A model generated the notes under the pieces. That model worked only from the letters and a program-made list of their open reading frames with translations. It ran no database searches and was not told the origin of the DNA. A stretch of 64,000 bases of DNA from a virus (lineage: Duplodnaviria; Heunggongvirae; Uroviricota; Caudoviricetes). Location: IMG/VR virus record IMGVR_UViG_2939521961_000011; one strand, 5' to 3'. The translations under genes and the position numbers were made by a program. This document shows positions 3,004-63,584 of this stretch, in pieces (within the stretch, counting starts at the first letter, position 1; every line of letters starts with the position of its first letter).

Positions 3004-3375
3004 ATGCGAATTTTCAAAAACGCCTGGTTTGAACGTTTCGCTCGAAAACATCGGATTTCCGATAAATCGCTGCGCAAAATCGTGGAGCAGGCCGATAAGG
3101 GGATCATATCCGCAAATTTGGGTAGTGGTGTCATTAAACAAAGATTAGCCCGAAGTGGTGGCGGAAAATCAGGCGGTTACCGGACAATAATTTTTTACCG
3201 CGTTGCAGAAAAAGCCTTTTTCATCTACGCATACGCAAAGAATGAACGAGAGAATATCACTGCTATAGAGGAAAATGCTTTTCGAAAAGCCGCTCCCCAT
3301 GTCCTCAATCTTACTGATGAACAGCTGGCACAATTGATTCAACAAGGCCAGTTCACGGAGGTACCCAATGAGTAA
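3004..3375 (+). CDS. RelE-superfamily toxin, HigB-2-like
   Basis: GGGKSGGYR and IIFY..AY.KNE motifs typical of HigB-2/RelE-like toxins; overlaps the downstream HTH gene by 8 nt (toxin-first order). Confidence 0.7.
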   Translation: MRIFKNAWFERFARKHRISDKSLRKIVEQADKGIISANLGSGVIKQRLARSGGGKSGGYRTIIFYRVAEKAFFIYAYAKNERENITAIEENAFRKAAPHVLNLTDEQLAQLIQQGQFTEVPNE

Positions 3376-3685
3376 AAATTACCGCAGTGATGCACTTGCA
3401 TCTGTACATGAAATGATGGAGTCACTCCATGATATCGGTGCAATCACAAAACAAACTATGCGCGAATTCGATGAAACTTGTCTTCAGCCTGCGCCGGTAA
3501 TGTCTCCGGAAAGGATCCGTGCACTGCGAGAACGAGAGCATCTGTCTCAACCTGTTTTTGCCAGATACCTCAACGTCAGTAAAAACCTGATATCAGACTG
3601 GGAACGAGGAGTGAAACGCCCGGGAGGTGCAGCTCTTCGGCTTCTTTCAGTTGTCGAGAAAAACGGGATCCAGGTAATATCCTGA
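3368..3685 (+). CDS. HTH antitoxin, HigA-2-like
   Basis: 105 aa with a C-terminal helix-turn-helix region (LSQPVFARYLNVSKNLISDWERG), coupled to the upstream toxin. Confidence 0.7.
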   Translation: MSKNYRSDALASVHEMMESLHDIGAITKQTMREFDETCLQPAPVMSPERIRALREREHLSQPVFARYLNVSKNLISDWERGVKRPGGAALRLLSVVEKNGIQVIS

Positions 3686-3787: not shown

Positions 3788-3943
3788 TTACTCCTCAGGT
3801 TCGTAAGCTGTGAAGACAGCGACCTCCGTCTGGCCGGTTCGGATTCGTACCTCGCAGAGGTCTTTCCTCGTTACCAGTGCCGTCACTATGACGGTTAAAC
3901 AGATGACAATCAGGGCGATTAACATCGCCTTTTGCTGCTTCAT
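3788..3943 (-). CDS. hok: Hok-family type I toxin (HokD/RelF-like)
   Basis: 51 aa MKQQKAMLIALIVICLTVIVTALVTRKDLCEVRIRTGQTEVAVFTAYEPEE, the canonical Hok sequence; AAGGAG RBS. Confidence 0.9.
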   Translation of the reverse strand: MKQQKAMLIALIVICLTVIVTALVTRKDLCEVRIRTGQTEVAVFTAYEPEE

Positions 3944-4170
3944 AGCCTGCTTCTCCTTGCCTTTCGGCACGTAAGAGGCTAACCTACATGTGCAAAGCAT
4001 GAAATTGGCCTCAGATTAATGTTAAGCGTCCTGCAAGACGCGTAATGTTAACTGGGGCTTTTCTCTGTCTGCCTTACGGCGGCATGCCCGAGGCAGACAG
4101 CCTCAAGCACCCGCAGCAATTCTACTTAACTCTTCTTTCCCCGCAAATCATTTTATCCCCGATGGTAATG
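3944..4170. promoter_or_regulatory. hok leader and presumed Sok antisense-RNA region
   Basis: Conserved with the region upstream of the second hok (50011..50220); Hok loci carry an antisense Sok RNA and leader fold-back elements here. Confidence 0.4.
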
Positions 4171-4214
4171 TTCTCCCGATATGGGAATTCCCATATCAAG
4201 GTTAACTCAATCGG

Positions 4215-4766
4215 TTAAAGCTCCATTAATTTTCCGGCCAGTTCATCTCGTGGCATTACCAGCCATCCGCGCGATTTAAGCAAAGCCAGGGCTTCTTCAA
4301 CCGTCACCAGCTGGCCAGGCGCATAACTTCGGATGAAGGCGGTTTTATCGTCACGGATCGCCAGGTGAAAATCGATATTCATTTTTCCCATAGCCCGCTC
4401 TTTCTCGTACTGGTTGAAGTAACTGTCTTCGAGTTTTTCGAATACTTCCCACGCCTGATCGGTTTCGAGCATTTTTGCATGACGGGCTGCTCCGCGTTCT
4501 GTCCAGAGGATGAGAGTGCGGGTTTTGGGAGAAATTTTCACCTCATTTTGCGACTCGTTTAAAACTAGTCGCAAATTTTTGAGCTCATCACCAACAGCTT
4601 TAAAGAAGTGTTTTCCCTCAATAAATCGAGATTTATTTTCATGGTGATTCTGCTGTATACGGATTGCTTCTGTTCCGTAAAGGCGGGCGAGTAACTCAGT
4701 TGTGATTACAGGAATCTGGTTATAAGTGACAGGGGAAAGGTTTTTGACAGTAACTTGAGTCGTCAT
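4215..4766 (-). CDS. Phage antirepressor / Rha-KilA-type regulatory protein
   Basis: 183 aa with the N-terminal ELLARLYG...FIEGKHFF pattern of phage antirepressors; absent from the equivalent place in prophage B. Confidence 0.6.
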   Translation of the reverse strand: MTTQVTVKNLSPVTYNQIPVITTELLARLYGTEAIRIQQNHHENKSRFIEGKHFFKAVGDELKNLRLVLNESQNEVKISPKTRTLILWTERGAARHAKMLETDQAWEVFEKLEDSYFNQYEKERAMGKMNIDFHLAIRDDKTAFIRSYAPGQLVTVEEALALLKSRGWLVMPRDELAGKLMEL

Positions 4767-5037
4767 GATAACGCCCTCTGGTTGATGAATTTAACTATCA
4801 CCACCTTCAGGTCTCAATCATCAGGTGGCGAGACGTACAGGGTTGAGACTACCGGATCAACCAACCGGCCAGCCTTTCGGCTGCCCCATACGCCTCACCA
4901 TAATTCAGATGTGCGTGCGCATACGACAATAAAAAACACGCTCGCGGCGTGTGTCTGTCGCGGTTGAATATCCGGGGTCTCAATCCCGACGGTCAACTCG
5001 ACCGTGCGGTGAATATAGCCCCGGATTAGTAATTACG

Positions 5038-5121
5038 TCAACCCCAGCGGCAAATCGAATAAACCACCAGCGCTACCGCCATTGCAACTCCTGCCGTTAC
5101 GAATGCCTCAGGCCAGGTCAT
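5038..5121 (-). CDS. Conserved 27-aa hydrophobic small protein (MTWPEAFVTAGVAMAVALVVYSICRWG)
   Basis: ATG overlaps the upstream stop (ATGA); GAGGA RBS; near-identical copy at 50221..50304 differing mainly by synonymous changes. Confidence 0.5.
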   Translation of the reverse strand: MTWPEAFVTAGVAMAVALVVYSICRWG

Positions 5122-5303
5122 CGTAAACTATCCTCAGCGCCAATCAGTCCGTTTCGCTTCAGGCAGTCCATCGCTTTATACGGTAATTTGGCTGACAGGC
5201 GAAAATCACCCTGCAGCATCAGGCTTATTCCCTTATCCCGGGCTTTCGCTCTGACCGCTGCCTCGCTACGACCAATCAGACTGCCGATACTTTCGACAGT
5301 CAT
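5118..5303 (-). CDS. Small HTH-like phage protein
   Basis: HTH-like segment IGSLIGRSEAAVRAKARDKGIS; longer paralog at 51734..52015; start chosen to avoid overlap with the upstream gene. Confidence 0.4.
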   Translation of the reverse strand: MTVESIGSLIGRSEAAVRAKARDKGISLMLQGDFRLSAKLPYKAMDCLKRNGLIGAEDSLR

Positions 5304-5362
5304 CGTTCCCGCGCACTGCCGGAGTATCAGAATTTCAGCCCGGCACCACGTCTTCCACCCAC

Positions 5363-6124
5363 TCACCGCTGCTGTTCTCTGGTGGCGGTAATATCCCGGA
5401 GAATATCCCGGCACTTGTTCAGCTCCCGCAGCGCGGCGCAGACTCGCTCCCACTTCTGAACCTGACCTTTTGCCCGGCGCAGCTCGCGGTTAGCCACATG
5501 CAGCGATGGTAAAATCAGCCCATCCGGATGCTTTCTGGTGAACGACGGCTGTGACTGCACTGTGACCGCCACACTTTCCGTTTTTATTTCTTCCTGTGTT
5601 TCCGCTTCCCGGACTGGTAACGCAACACATGCTGGCTGAGGAAAGGCTTTACCATCGGTTTCCGCTACGGATGCAGCTTCCGGCTCTGCCGGTAAATCAG
5701 CGCCCGGTATGCAGTAACGAAATTTACCGTTCTGATTTACGCGTGCCAGGCGCCCCGTTGCTGTTACGACCGCCAACGTGGAAGCAACCTTGCGAATGCT
5801 AACACCGAACTTATCCGCCAGTTCCTCACACGTTTTAGCCCCATCCTGACAGATAAACTCAATCATCATGTCCGCGGTAACTTTTTGTTCGACCTCCCCG
5901 GTCAGCACATCCGGTACTTCAGACTGTGCTGGCTGTTCTTCGGTTACCCCGGATTCACCTTCACCAGCCAGAAACCAGGTGTGACCCGTTTTATCAACAA
6001 CGCCATTTTTTTTGAGTTCCCACAGTTCGTTGAGAACTTCTTCACGGCTGATATCAAGCCGCGCCGCCAGTTCAACAGAATTGGCTTTACCCATCGTTTT
6101 CAGTGCATGCAATACGGTTTCCAT
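5363..6124 (-). CDS. DUF1627-like phage protein with N-terminal winged-helix
   Basis: 253 aa, acidic linker, conserved C-terminus; paralog at 52048..52809; lies directly downstream of the DnaC-like gene. Confidence 0.65.
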
Positions 6125-45570: not shown

Positions 45571-45784
45571 TATTCCTCCCGGCCGGGATAGTGTATTAAA
45601 TCAGATATGGAGTGGGCTGTAGTCCGGAAGCCTGAATGACACACGGGGACTACAGCCCAAGAAATGAAAAAAGGCCACGCAGTTGCGCAGCCTGATAAAC
45701 CCTGGTTAAAATCCACACGATAACAACACAACAATATCAGTATCTCATGCTATTGCCCGAACCCATTCGGGCATTTTTTACCCA

Positions 45785-45816
45785 TAAAAAAGCCCCTCCG
45801 GAGAGGGGCATGTTTG
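45785..45816. terminator. Bidirectional rho-independent terminator
   Basis: gcccctc cgga gaggggc hairpin flanked by an A-run and a T-rich stretch. Confidence 0.4.
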
Positions 45817-46140
45817 CATGCACATTCTTTTTCTTGCATGGTGCCGGGTGCCTCCCGGTGAATTCAGTATCAGCACCTGAATCCGCGATTATCACATATA
45901 CCTGGTTGCTGATTGCCCCTCCGCACAGGGGGATTCACCATGCAGTAGTATTTTTAATAAACAGTAAACAAAAAAATCAAGCATTATGCAGGCTGTTTCT
46001 TTTTATCACCGGCCACAGCAATACCACAATGCCGCAGACCAGCACCCCATCCGCCAGCACCGACATGATTCTGCTGGTGAAATCCACCATCACCACCAGA
46101 AACAGCAGGAGTGCAGCCACAGCCAGGCGCAGTTTTACCG

Positions 46141-49854: not shown

Positions 49855-50010
49855 TTACTTCTCAGATTCGTAGTCTACGAAGACAGCGACCTCCGTCTGA
49901 CCGGTTCGGATTCGCACCTCGCAGAGGTCTTTCCTCGTTACCAGTGCCGTCACTATGACGGTTAAACAGATGACGATCAGGGCGATTAACATCGCCTTTT
50001 GCTGCTTCAT
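49855..50010 (-). CDS. hok: Hok-family type I toxin
   Basis: 51 aa MKQQKAMLIALIVICLTVIVTALVTRKDLCEVRIRTGQTEVAVFVDYESEK; conserved leader/Sok region upstream. Confidence 0.9.
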   Translation of the reverse strand: MKQQKAMLIALIVICLTVIVTALVTRKDLCEVRIRTGQTEVAVFVDYESEK

Positions 50011-50220
50011 AGCCTGCTTCTCCTTGCCTTTCGGCACGTAAGAGGCTAACCTACATGTGTTCAGCATGGATTGAGCCTCAGATTAATGTTAAGCGTCTTG
50101 CAGGACGCGTAATGTTAACTGGGGCTTTTCTCTATCTGCCGTTGGTGTTCATGCCCGAGGCAGATAGCCTCAAGCACCCGCTGCAATTCTACTTAACTAT
50201 CCTTTTCCCGCAAACCGTTT

Positions 50221-50304
50221 TTATCCCCAGCGGCAAATCGAATACACCACCAGCGCCACCGCCATCGCAATTCCTACCGTTGTGAATGCTTCAGGCCAGG
50301 TCAT
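50221..50304 (-). CDS. Conserved 27-aa hydrophobic small protein (MTWPEAFTTVGIAMAVALVVYSICRWG)
   Basis: AGGAGG RBS; ATG overlaps the stop of the DUF551 gene (ATGA); paralog at 5038..5121. Confidence 0.5.
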   Translation of the reverse strand: MTWPEAFTTVGIAMAVALVVYSICRWG

Positions 50305-50858
50305 TGATTCACCTCCTGCGGCGGTTCTGGTAGCGACATCCAGTGGGTTGCTTGCCTAAGATCATTACCCGGACTAACTGCTATACCTCCGCGCCGGAAC
50401 GTGCCTCCGAGATAGCGTGCGGAATATATTAATGGCCCAGCCTCGCTATCGATATTCATCGAAATAAGCACGTTCTGGCTCTTTTCAGGCATTCGCTCAG
50501 TACAGCTTATCCAGCCATCCAGAGTTATCGGAGATCTGGTTGACGTTTCCGAGATTTCCCGAAAATTGTTGGTTGACGAATTCTTATTTTCCCGAAAGTT
50601 TCCGGCCTGAAGCATGGCGACGCGGCAGGCGTTCCAGCCATCAGCATATGTTTTAGTTACACCGTCGAGATGGCAGGTAAGCAAATCCATTTCATCAGGC
50701 ACTACCATTGCTATCGGCTCTGCTTCCAGTGATGCCAGCGCGATACGAAACACATTAGCCAGCAGGCTGTCTGAAGACTTGTTATCGTGCGCCGAGTCGC
50801 TCAGGAAGCCTGTGATGTATGATTTAATCTCCGCGCGTTCTCTGGTAATAGTGCTCAT
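50301..50858 (-). CDS. DUF551-type phage protein
   Basis: 185 aa with C-terminal W.SC.ERMPE...THWM.LPEPP pattern that I associate with DUF551. Confidence 0.55.
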   Translation of the reverse strand: MSTITRERAEIKSYITGFLSDSAHDNKSSDSLLANVFRIALASLEAEPIAMVVPDEMDLLTCHLDGVTKTYADGWNACRVAMLQAGNFRENKNSSTNNFREISETSTRSPITLDGWISCTERMPEKSQNVLISMNIDSEAGPLIYSARYLGGTFRRGGIAVSPGNDLRQATHWMSLPEPPQEVNQ

Positions 50859-61449: not shown

Positions 61450-61656
61450 ATGACAAAAATTATGAGATATGACGATGTTAAACCATGTCCGTTTTGTGGT
61501 TGTCCATCTGTTACAGTGAAAGCAATTTCAGGATATTACCGGGCAAAATGCAACGGATGCGAATCCCGAACTGGCTATGGTGGAAGTGAAAAAGAAGCAC
61601 TCGAAAGATGGAATAAACGAACTACTGGAAATAATAATGGAGGTGTTCATGTATAA
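61450..61656 (+). CDS. ralR: Restriction alleviation protein Lar (RalR)
   Basis: MTKIMRYDDVKPCPFCGCPSVTVKAISGYYRAKCNGCESRTGYGG... with Cys4 zinc ribbon, as Rac Lar. Confidence 0.8.
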   Translation: MTKIMRYDDVKPCPFCGCPSVTVKAISGYYRAKCNGCESRTGYGGSEKEALERWNKRTTGNNNGGVHV

Positions 61657-61837
61657 AATAACTGCCACTATTGAAAAAGAAGGTGGCACTCCTACTAACT
61701 GGACAAGATATTCAAAATCTAAATTAACGAAATCAGAATGCGAAAAAATGCTCTCAGGGAAAAAAGAAGCAGGCGTGTCCAGAGAGCAGAAAGTAAAGCT
61801 GATAAATTTTAATTGCGAGAAACTTCTGTCCTCGTGA
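61637..61837 (+). CDS. ydaC: YdaC-like small protein
   Basis: Small ORF overlapping the lar 3' end, in the Rac order lar-ydaC-xis-int; start uncertain. Confidence 0.5.
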   Translation: MEVFMYKITATIEKEGGTPTNWTRYSKSKLTKSECEKMLSGKKEAGVSREQKVKLINFNCEKLLSS

Positions 61838-63306: not shown

Positions 63307-63584
63307 TATAACCAAAAAAGACCGGAATACAGAAATTCGAGTAAATTTCGAGTAATTTCGGGGAGACGTTTGCAACTAATTGATTTTAAATACAATTAAA
63401 AAAAGACCGAATACGATTCCTGTATTCGGTCCAGGGAAATGGCTCTTGGGAGAGAGCCGTGCGCTAAAAGTTGGCATTAATGCAGGCTTAGTTGCCTTGC
63501 CCTTTAAGAATAGATGACGACGCCAGGTTTTCCAGTTTGCGTGCAAAATGGTCAATAAAAAGCGTGGTGGTCATCAGCTGAAAT

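What the first reader, a model, noticed from the sequence alone, without database searches (positions are those of the whole stretch)
5038..5121. Conserved 27-codon hydrophobic peptide gene in both prophages, translationally coupled to different upstream genes
Minus-strand ORFs at 5038..5121 and 50221..50304 encode MTWPEAF(V/T)T(A/V)G(V/I)AMAVALVVYSICRWG. Each has a good RBS and an ATG overlapping the stop of the upstream gene (ATGA), although the upstream partners differ (an HTH gene in A, a DUF551 gene in B). Between the copies there are five synonymous and three conservative changes, which suggests purifying selection on a single-pass membrane peptide. It is too short for standard gene callers and could be a type I toxin-like or regulatory membrane peptide.
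Basis: seen in the sequence. Interest (0 to 1): 0.6.

Follow-up and report, generated by a model that had tools for sequence, protein, structure and literature searches.

The report
Unannotated 27-residue phage membrane peptide gene
Both prophages in this window carry a real but almost never annotated 27-codon gene for a tiny membrane-spanning peptide, found in about 30% of complete E. coli genomes and many Shiga-toxin phages, whose function is still unknown.

Summary
Minus-strand ORFs at 5038..5121 and 50221..50304 encode MTWPEAF(V/T)T(A/V)G(V/I)AMAVALVVYSICRWG. Each has a Shine-Dalgarno motif and an ATGA stop/start overlap with the upstream gene. The two copies share 74/84 nt, while their flanks are at random identity (23-27%).

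The ORF occurs in 1631 of 5426 complete E. coli genomes, about 94 phage records (Stx phages, other lambdoid phages, rV5-like myoviruses), 181 plasmid records (the one inspected, about 97 kb, is IncY) and at least 529 IMG/VR contigs. Homology starts at the ATG and stops at the stop codon. Changes are mostly synonymous (pN/pS 0.24; 97.5 synonymous vs 70.5 non-synonymous, p=6e-21). Length is 27 codons in 92 of 96 instances, and ATGA coupling holds in 87 of 90.

It is therefore a genuine gene for a predicted single-pass membrane microprotein. It is the last cistron of the mosaic Ea22/EaA/DUF551 accessory operon. At 84 nt it fell below the 30-aa cut-off of the one EHEC Ribo-seq study whose threshold I checked, and probably below common gene-caller length limits.

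The "type I toxin" reading is not supported. I found no antisense RNA and no transcription unit of its own, and the real hok/sok loci lie just downstream. No curated family matches. Rare natural in-frame fusions to Ea22-like proteins hint that it works with its upstream partner. Its function is not shown.

The parts
5038..5121 (-). Small ORF copy A, 27 codons plus TGA: MTWPEAFVTAGVAMAVALVVYSICRWG
   Evidence: The exact peptide is called on 6 public contigs as 'bacteriophage protein'. It is not annotated by PGAP in NC_013361.
50221..50304 (-). Small ORF copy B, 27 codons plus TAA: MTWPEAFTTVGIAMAVALVVYSICRWG. This is the commonest variant of the family.
   Evidence: 49 of 96 sampled instances. 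The exact peptide is called on 79 contigs. It is not annotated by PGAP.
5131..5135 (-). Shine-Dalgarno GAGGA of copy A, inside the upstream gene, 9 nt before the ATG
   Evidence: An SD-like 5-mer is present in 92 of 95 family instances.
50312..50317 (-). Shine-Dalgarno AGGAGG of copy B, inside the DUF551 gene, 7 nt before the ATG
   Evidence: Positions -12..-7 are the only conserved upstream stretch (identity 0.78).
5118..5366 (-). Upstream partner of copy A. It is a deletion chimera (N-terminus of a DNA-binding protein joined to the last 23 codons of the usual Ea-type partner) whose TGA stop overlaps the small ORF's ATG.
   Evidence: No Pfam domain.
50301..50858 (-). Upstream partner of copy B: a 185-aa DUF551 protein ending ...HWMSLPEPPQEVNQ, whose TGA stop overlaps the small ORF's ATG

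Best explanation
The ORF is a genuine, mostly unannotated phage gene for a 27-residue microprotein that is predicted to cross the inner membrane once. The family signature is x-W-P-(E/D)-A-(F/I)-x3-G-x3-A-x5-(Y/F)-S-x2-R-W-G. Shown here: the peptide sequence is under purifying selection. The unit of conservation is exactly ATG to stop. The ORF is nearly always the last cistron of the mosaic Ea22/EaA/DUF551 accessory operon, either between the replication and Q genes or just before xis-int. Its ATG overlaps the upstream stop (ATGA or TAATG), with an SD inside the upstream gene. Inferred: it is translated by termination-reinitiation coupling whenever the early operon is transcribed, that is on infection or induction and not in a repressed lysogen. 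It then inserts into the inner membrane through residues ~6-24, with aromatic residues (W3/F7 and Y21/W26) at the two interfaces. Speculative, but my preferred mechanism: it acts there by helix packing, using the conserved G11-xxx-A15 motif and the conserved termini. It would serve either as a membrane anchor or adaptor for its soluble Ea-type partner, or as a modulator of a host inner-membrane protein, rather than as a killer peptide.
For: Coding: there are 44 distinct nucleotide versions. pN/pS is 0.24 in this frame, against 1.3-1.8 in four of the other five frames. Along a minimum spanning tree there are 97.5 synonymous vs 70.5 non-synonymous changes, where 24% synonymous is expected (p=6e-21). 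Invariant residues persist through synonymous codon changes: P4 CCT/CCG, G11 GGA/GGG, A15 with four codons, Y21, S22, C24, R25 with three codons. TAA and TGA alternate at the same stop position.

Boundaries: anchored column identity is 0.80-0.98 from ATG to stop and falls to ~0.33 immediately after the stop. Upstream it is ~0.5, except at the SD.

Intactness: 92 of 96 instances have 27 codons, and 91 of 94 phage records give a single full-length match.

Coupling: the upstream stop starts at +1 (ATGA) in 87 of 90 instances. The annotated upstream CDS ends 4 nt into the ORF in 933W, ArgO145, TH18, PhiR12_4, 666R9 and POCJ13. An SD 5-mer is present in 92 of 95. In packed operons the ORF exactly fills the 82-85-nt gap between annotated genes.

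Mobility: there are 22 clusters of upstream proteins and 29 distinct 12-mers immediately after the stop, i.e. at least ~15 unrelated downstream contexts. It occurs in Sepvirinae Stx phages, other lambdoid phages, rV5-like Vequintavirinae, the P1-like phage SJ46 and an IncY plasmid.

Membrane: the Kyte-Doolittle mean is 2.1-2.2 over residues 6-24.

Link to the partner: natural in-frame fusions of an Ea22-like protein to the peptide exist, with the internal ATG and SD retained (P0083 on 6 contigs, P0085). A Salmonella fusion also exists (P0082). An analogous 30-aa TM ORF is ATGA-coupled to DUF551/EaA genes in Klebsiella, Aeromonas and Vibrio Roufvirus-like phages.
Against: No expression data are available. 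The one EHEC Ribo-seq study whose threshold I checked considered only ORFs of 30 aa or more, and the peptide string is absent from the supplements I searched. The mirror antisense frame also shows low pN/pS (0.31), so the substitution pattern alone does not fix the strand; start, stop, SD and coupling do that. There is no significant helical periodicity of conservation (permutation p=0.35), so a 'conserved packing face' is not demonstrated. Topology is ambiguous: the charges suggest N-out/C-in, but the fusions to soluble proteins would need N-in. The upstream partners are very diverse, and many DUF551 genes lack the ORF (HK022, P22, SE22, RCIP0098). That argues against an obligate specific partner interaction. 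Some copies are disrupted (TAG at codon 3 in POCJ13, a few frameshifts and stop losses). No homology to any characterised protein was found.
Confidence: 0.6

Rival explanations
1. It is a type I toxin-like or membrane-damaging killer peptide. A small hydrophobic peptide would depolarise the membrane when made, acting in abortive infection or post-segregational killing.
For: The size and hydrophobicity resemble TisB, DinQ and ShoB-class toxins (from my own knowledge, plus the hydropathy). It often sits beside TA cassettes, with hok/sok, RelE/ParE or ParDE downstream.
Against: It is a coupled last cistron with no promoter of its own. I found no antisense-strand promoter. No Rfam antitoxin or other RNA family lies over it. 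The flanks are unrelated between contexts, so no conserved antisense RNA or structured 5' UTR can exist outside the 84 nt. Consensus RNA structure within the ORF is weak (-5.2 kcal/mol). There is no PADLOC hit. It is also carried by virulent rV5-like phages inside early operons. The neighbouring TA cassettes vary and are frequently absent.
Confidence: 0.1
2. It is a split-off C-terminal membrane tail of the Ea22/EaA-type proteins. The ancestral state would be a tail-anchored Ea protein, and the ATGA arrangement would be a gene fission in which the peptide still serves, non-covalently or not at all, as the anchor.
For: In-frame fusions exist in natural prophages (P0083, P0085, P0082). The partners always end in one of a few conserved tail modules.
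Against: Fusions are rare: a handful of contigs, against thousands of split copies. The split form keeps its own ATG, SD and fixed 27-codon length across 22 partner clusters. The fusions retain the internal ATG and an SD-like GGAG. That pattern fits secondary fusion better than an ancestral fused state.
Confidence: 0.15
3. It is a conserved non-coding DNA or RNA element. It could be a recombination 'boundary/linker' sequence that promotes module exchange in mosaic phages, or an RNA signal, and the ORF would be incidental.
For: It sits exactly at a mosaic junction with many alternative neighbours. In prophage A an ~880-bp isrK-C4-ORF6N cassette is inserted right at its stop codon, and the cassette ends with the same GGGGATAA octamer. 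The -35 box of the putative isrK promoter overlaps the stop codon.
Against: The changes are concentrated at synonymous sites (p=6e-21). ATG, stop position and length are conserved. All indel variants that keep the C-terminus are in-frame 6-nt repeat expansions. There is no convincing conserved RNA fold and no Rfam hit. Divergent relatives at 52-60% amino-acid identity keep the peptide motif.
Confidence: 0.05
4. It is translated, but the act of translation matters rather than the peptide. It would be a terminal 'spacer' cistron that keeps ribosomes on the mRNA up to the operon end, preventing Rho termination or protecting the 3' end, or a leader that controls the downstream cassette.
For: It is always the last cistron. 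It is often followed within 80 nt by a terminator-like hairpin (21 of 50 unique contexts).
Against: Amino-acid identity is conserved through synonymous change, which a pure spacer would not need. The downstream elements are unrelated to one another, so it cannot be a dedicated leader.
Confidence: 0.05

Closest known systems
Bacterial and phage small single-pass inner-membrane proteins that bind larger membrane proteins (KdpF, AcrZ, MgtS, PmrR, CydX)
   Same: It is under 50 residues. It has one hydrophobic helix flanked by aromatic or charged interface residues. It carries a small-xxx-small motif (G11xxxA15). Such genes are commonly missed by annotation.
   Different: There is no significant sequence relationship: the best hit is NCBIfam KdpF at E=0.02-0.04, below its cut-off, and Pfam gives only chance-level hits. 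It is phage-borne, sits in an early accessory operon, and no partner protein is known.
Type I toxins (Hok/Gef, TisB, DinQ, Ldr, Ibs/ShoB)
   Same: It is a short hydrophobic peptide on a prophage, physically next to real hok/sok loci.
   Different: No antisense RNA, no promoter or structured leader of its own, and it is translationally coupled within an operon.
30-residue ORF of Klebsiella/Aeromonas/Vibrio Roufvirus-like phages (MKPYIIRRLIAVACIAFWIAVALAVYFILR), annotated as 'hypothetical protein'
   Same: It is a single hydrophobic helix. It has an ATGA overlap with an EaA/DUF551 protein that ends in the same tail types (..HWMPLPAAPQEVKS..CRAAMLNGGKS). The C-terminal half is similar (AVALAVYFILR vs AVALVVYSICR).
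   Different: The N-terminus is basic (MKPYIIRR) instead of the acidic MTWPE. Profile-profile support is weak (hhalign probability 65% over 17 columns), so homology is not established.
Lambda exo-xis / P22 'ea' accessory genes (Ea22, EaA, orf60a/61/63)
   Same: It has the same genomic neighbourhood and presumably the same early transcription. Ea22 is reported as pro-lysogenic (PMC10834534).
   Different: The papers I checked on this region describe no such peptide (full-text search for the peptide string gave 0 papers). Phage HK022 and P22 DUF551 genes lack it.

Membership tests
Type I toxin-antitoxin toxin | Small hydrophobic, membrane-active peptide | tested here: met
   27 aa; Kyte-Doolittle mean 2.1-2.2 over residues 6-24. 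Membrane activity itself was not tested.
Type I toxin-antitoxin toxin | Cognate antisense/antitoxin RNA overlapping or adjacent to the toxin mRNA | tested here: not met
   No Rfam family lies over the ORF; sok hits are at 3938-4112 and 50005-50179 only. No antisense promoter was found. The flanks are unrelated between contexts. The consensus fold is weak.
Type I toxin-antitoxin toxin | Independent transcription unit with a structured 5' UTR that limits translation | tested here: not met
   The ATG overlaps the upstream stop in 87 of 90 instances, and the SD lies inside the upstream gene.
Type I toxin-antitoxin toxin | Toxicity on overexpression | not testable with these tools
   This needs an experiment.
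Translationally coupled (termination-reinitiation) terminal cistron | Start codon overlapping or abutting the upstream stop (ATGA/TAATG), with an SD within the upstream ORF | tested here: met
   ATGA in 87 of 90 instances, with the -2 offset (TGATG form) in 2 of the remaining 3. A TAATG overlap occurs in SJ46. An SD 5-mer is present in 92 of 95.
Translationally coupled (termination-reinitiation) terminal cistron | Expression depends on translation of the upstream cistron | not testable with these tools
   This needs reporter fusions with upstream stop or start mutants.
Small single-pass membrane protein regulators (KdpF/AcrZ/MgtS-like) | Fewer than 50 aa with one predicted TM helix | tested here: met
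Small single-pass membrane protein regulators (KdpF/AcrZ/MgtS-like) | Sequence membership in a described family | tested here: not met
   Pfam, NCBIfam, PHROGs and PADLOC give nothing significant. The best hits are phrog_4612 at E=0.019 and KdpF at E=0.024 (below cut-off).
Small single-pass membrane protein regulators (KdpF/AcrZ/MgtS-like) | Binds and modulates a larger membrane protein | not testable with these tools
   No multimer prediction or interaction assay was available.
DUF551 (PF04448), the label NCBI gives to several partial entries containing the peptide | Match to the DUF551 domain model | tested here: not met
   The peptide has no PF04448 hit. The domain lies in the upstream protein, residues 115-181. 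The 'DUF551, partial' names and the shared 90% cluster are chaining artefacts.

The most novel reading that the evidence does not exclude
The peptide and its upstream hypervariable Ea22/EaA/DUF551 protein would form a conserved two-gene module. In this module a detachable 27-residue membrane anchor or adaptor brings interchangeable soluble early proteins to the inner membrane, for example for superinfection exclusion or the lysis-lysogeny decision. The module would be shared by lambdoid, P1-like and rV5-like coliphages and, in a diverged form, by Klebsiella/Aeromonas Roufvirus-like phages. That would define a previously unrecognised, widespread class of phage early membrane-targeting system.
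Probability: 0.15. Interest if true: 0.65.

Novelty: new member of a known kind. Interest (0 to 1): 0.45.

Why it matters
The gene is present in about 30% of complete E. coli genomes, with up to 7 copies each, and in the classical Shiga-toxin phages (933W, VT1/VT2-Sakai, Min27, BP-4795). It is nevertheless absent from every RefSeq/PGAP region I inspected, from all but a few sporadic phage and GenBank annotations, and from Pfam, NCBIfam and PHROGs. It is a clean case of a conserved gene that standard pipelines do not report. It adds a membrane component to the poorly understood exo-xis/'ea' accessory regions, which are reported to bias Stx-phage development towards lysogeny. If it anchors or modulates Ea-type proteins or a host membrane protein, it becomes a handle on Stx prophage induction biology. 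At the least it should be added to annotation models.

Tried and rejected
(1) Family searches with the peptide in Pfam, NCBIfam, PHROGs and PADLOC gave only chance-level hits.

(2) The search for homologous proteins and the search for related loci refuse single queries this short. I worked around this with a natural 40-aa stop-loss variant and with alignments.

(3) Literature: the string MTWPEAF occurs in 0 papers. It is absent from the held supplements of the Sakai and EDL933 Ribo-seq papers and of the Enterobacteriaceae microproteome preprint. The Sakai study excluded ORFs under 30 aa. The CFT073 small-protein preprint could not be opened.

(4) Helical periodicity of conservation, to show a packing face, was not significant (p=0.35).

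(5) The conserved RNA structure hypothesis failed: RNAalifold gave -5.2 kcal/mol with little covariation.

(6) The idea that every DUF551 gene carries such a peptide is false. HK022, P22, SE22 and RCIP0098 lack it, and DUF551 is in 604 phage records against about 94 for the peptide.

(7) An apparent 90% cluster joining the peptide to 121-aa Shigella DUF551 proteins is a clustering artefact, not a fusion.

(8) Homology between the E. coli family and the Klebsiella 30-aa family is only suggestive (hhalign 65%).

(9) Structure prediction was not attempted, because the peptide is below the tool's 30-aa minimum and a lone helix would be uninformative.

Full report
**1. The observation**

Reading the minus strand confirms both ORFs. 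Window 5038..5121 encodes MTWPEAFVTAGVAMAVALVVYSICRWG and 50221..50304 encodes MTWPEAFTTVGIAMAVALVVYSICRWG. Each starts with ATGA, in which TGA terminates the upstream ORF.

Each ATG is preceded by a Shine-Dalgarno motif inside that upstream ORF: GAGGA with a 9-nt spacer in A, and AGGAGG with a 7-nt spacer in B.

The two copies are 74/84 nt identical. The 200 nt on each side are only 23-27% identical, which is random. Within the coding part there are 5 synonymous and 4 non-synonymous nucleotide differences, giving 3 residue changes. A degenerate search for the N-terminal motif finds exactly these two sites in the window, against 0.06 expected.

**2. Where the window comes from and what surrounds the copies**

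The window matches E. coli O26:H11-type chromosomes at 100% identity. ORF content and Rfam hits indicate two tandem lambdoid prophages. Both copies lie at the same relative place, after the replication genes and before the DUF968/RusA/Q region.

PGAP annotates neither copy.

The partner upstream of B is a 185-aa DUF551 protein.

The partner upstream of A is flagged by PGAP as a truncated 'DNA-binding protein' pseudogene. I find it to be a chimera. Residues 13-60 match the N-terminus of the intact DNA-binding protein of prophage B (73% identity). The last 23 residues match the C-terminal tail of the usual partner of this small ORF (70% identity). A deletion therefore removed the accessory genes but kept the tail, the SD and the small ORF.

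Downstream of B, the hok/sok locus follows 42 nt after the stop (Rfam sok 50005-50179).

In A, an ~880-bp cassette lies between the small ORF and the homologous hok/sok locus. It holds isrK (4931-5005), a C4 antisense RNA (4821-4905) and an ORF6N protein (PGAP product name, Pfam PF10543; 4215-4766), which I take to be an antirepressor-type protein.

**3. Distribution**

- The 84-nt sequence occurs in 1631 of 5426 complete E. coli genomes. There are 3105 places, up to 7 per genome, and 163 are on plasmids.
- tblastn finds it in 94 phage records. These include 933W, VT1- and VT2-Sakai, Stx2 I/II, Min27, BP-4795, YYZ-2008, ArgO145, other temperate phages, and rV5-like Vequintavirinae such as TH18 and Av-05.
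- It is in 181 plasmid records from E. coli, E. albertii, E. fergusonii, Salmonella and one Klebsiella. They are mostly non-mobilizable and about 90-110 kb. The one I inspected is IncY, which fits P1-like phage-plasmids.
- The P1-like phage SJ46 has a 24-residue variant with a TAATG overlap.
- IMG/VR holds at least 529 relatives.
- Among one genome per species, only Escherichia and Shigella carry it, apart from three tiny, probably contaminant contigs.
- A profile search of 1.84 billion representatives found 46 proteins at E<=1e-3. Some are divergent members (52-60% identity) in metagenomic phage-like operons.
- The resulting signature is x-W-P-(E/D)-A-(F/I)-x3-G-x3-A-x5-(Y/F)-S-x2-R-W-G.

**4. 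Is it a gene?**

Four independent lines say yes.

(a) Boundaries. In 64 unique anchored segments, column identity is 0.80-0.98 from the A of the ATG to the stop. It drops to ~0.33 at the first base after the stop. Upstream it is ~0.5, except at the SD (0.78).

(b) Substitution pattern. Among 44 distinct nucleotide versions, variable columns by codon position number 14/13/23. pN/pS is 0.24, against 1.3-1.8 in four of the other five frames. Along a minimum spanning tree there are 97.5 synonymous and 70.5 non-synonymous changes, where 24% synonymous is expected (p=6e-21). The mirror antisense frame also scores low (0.31). That is expected when wobble positions coincide, and that frame has no conserved start or stop. 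Invariant residues persist through codon changes, and TAA/TGA alternate at one fixed position.

(c) Integrity. 92 of 96 sampled instances have exactly 27 codons. The length variants that keep the C-terminus are in-frame 6-nt repeat expansions in the hydrophobic core, giving 29, 31, 33 or 35 aa. Disrupted copies exist but are rare: TAG at codon 3 in POCJ13, three stop losses, and a few frameshifts.

(d) Expression signals. The upstream stop overlaps the ATG as ATGA in 87 of 90 instances. An SD 5-mer is present in 92 of 95. In tightly packed operons the ORF exactly fills an otherwise empty 82-85-nt gap.

No conserved RNA structure competes with this reading, and no Rfam family covers the ORF.

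**5. Genomic logic**

Upstream partners fall into 22 clusters of mosaic Ea22/EaA/DUF551-type proteins. They end in a few recurring tails...THWMPLPEPPQEVNQ...LPDKAMDYLKRNGLISVEDVLR...NIEQKVNQ and ...AAMLKKKGMNQ.

Downstream there are 29 distinct 12-mers right after the stop, which I read as at least ~15 unrelated contexts. Of 50 unique 80-nt contexts, 12 are hok/sok, 6 are a next gene within 14 nt, 21 are terminator-like hairpins, and 11 are other.

The ORF is therefore the terminal cistron of the accessory operon. It sits in the nin-type position, as in this window, or in the exo-xis position just before DUF4222-xis-int.

Not all DUF551 genes carry it.

**6. What it probably does**

Residues 6-24 have a Kyte-Doolittle mean of 2.1-2.2. 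Aromatic residues lie at both ends (W3/F7 and Y21/W26), with an acidic N-side (E5) and a basic C-side (R25). From this I infer a single-pass inner-membrane microprotein, made by termination-reinitiation when the early operon is transcribed.

Two observations tie it to its partner. First, natural in-frame fusions of an Ea22-like protein to the peptide exist, and they keep the internal ATG and an SD-like GGAG (P0083 on 6 contigs, P0085). There is also a Salmonella fusion (P0082). Second, an analogous 30-residue hydrophobic ORF is ATGA-coupled to DUF551/EaA proteins with the same tails in Roufvirus-like Klebsiella/Aeromonas/Vibrio phages. Homology between the two peptide families is only suggestive (hhalign 65%).

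My preferred but unproven mechanism is a membrane adaptor or anchor, or a modulator of a membrane protein. A conserved helical face could not be demonstrated (p=0.35), and the topology is ambiguous.

**7. Comparison with known systems**

No curated family matches.

The type I toxin reading fails two defining features tested here. There is no antisense RNA and no autonomous, structured transcription unit.

The genuine type I systems are the adjacent hok/sok loci.

The closest kind is the class of small single-pass membrane proteins such as KdpF, AcrZ and MgtS. It belongs there by architecture only.

Databases hold the exact peptides sporadically as 'bacteriophage protein' or 'hypothetical protein' (79 and 6 contigs), or mislabelled 'DUF551, partial'. 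It has therefore been seen but never defined or studied. Full-text search for the peptide string finds no paper. The Ea22 structure paper does not mention it. The Sakai Ribo-seq study excluded ORFs under 30 aa.

**8. Verdict**

This is a real, widespread, essentially unannotated phage microprotein gene. I class it as a new member of a known kind. Interest is moderate: it is solid and useful for annotation and for Stx-phage biology, but it is not mechanistically surprising unless the partner-anchor hypothesis proves true.

Noticed in passing
window 4160-5037 (minus strand): In prophage A an ~880-bp cassette sits exactly between the small ORF's stop and the hok/sok locus that follows directly in prophage B. 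It holds isrK (4931-5005), a C4 antisense RNA (4821-4905) and an ORF6N protein I take to be antirepressor-type (4215-4766). A promoter-like site (TTGACG-18-TATATT, 5041-5012) overlaps the small ORF's stop and would start transcription near the isrK 5' end. The cassette ends with the same GGGGATAA octamer as the small ORF.
   Followed up: partly
window 5118-5366 (minus strand): The gene upstream of copy A is a deletion chimera. It joins the N-terminal 48 residues of the prophage DNA-binding protein to the last 23 residues of an Ea-type partner. The accessory genes present in prophage B (two hypotheticals, DUF4014, DUF551) are missing here. PGAP calls it a pseudogene.
   Followed up: yes
window 3938-4112 and 50005-50179 (minus strand): There are two hok/sok type I toxin-antitoxin loci (Rfam sok, 117 and 113 bits), one in each prophage. 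They are about 91% identical to each other.
   Followed up: partly
window 10591-10642 (+), 45718-45969, 61655-61833 (-), 63394-63538: Other small RNAs are present: DicF, AgvB with STnc100, RalA (the RalR antitoxin), and the chromosomal SraC/RyeA-SdsR/RyeB pair at the right edge. The last suggests that prophage B is integrated next to ryeA/ryeB.
   Followed up: no
L111 156-776; L112-L114 (for example L112 4001-4432): Natural in-frame fusions of an Ea22-like protein to the peptide (206 and 143 aa) lie in the exo-xis region of small lambdoid prophages, directly before DUF4222-xis-int. The internal ATG and a GGAG 9 nt upstream are retained.
   Followed up: partly
L106 910-1002; L107, L108, L110 901-993: Klebsiella/Aeromonas/Vibrio Roufvirus-like phages carry a 30-codon hydrophobic ORF (MKPYIIRRLIA..FWIAVALAVYFILR). 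It is ATGA-coupled to DUF551/EaA proteins with the same C-terminal tails. It is annotated as hypothetical in most of the records inspected and unannotated in Aeromonas phage pIS4-A.
   Followed up: partly
proteins P0039, P0048, P0049, P0050, P0054: Some E. coli copies have in-frame expansions of a 6-nt repeat (GCGATG/GCGGTG, read as AM/AV) inside the hydrophobic core, giving peptides of 29-35 residues. This may be a slippage-prone tract that changes helix length.
   Followed up: no
L009 2501-2584 (Shigella phage POCJ13): This copy has TGG->TAG at codon 3 and is otherwise the most divergent lambdoid copy. It is likely a decaying copy.
   Followed up: no
window 3004-3685 (+ strand): A RelE/ParE-family toxin and an HTH antitoxin pair lie just beyond hokD in prophage A, according to the PGAP annotation of the identical O26 region. 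This small region therefore stacks three toxin-antitoxin or antirepressor modules.
   Followed up: no
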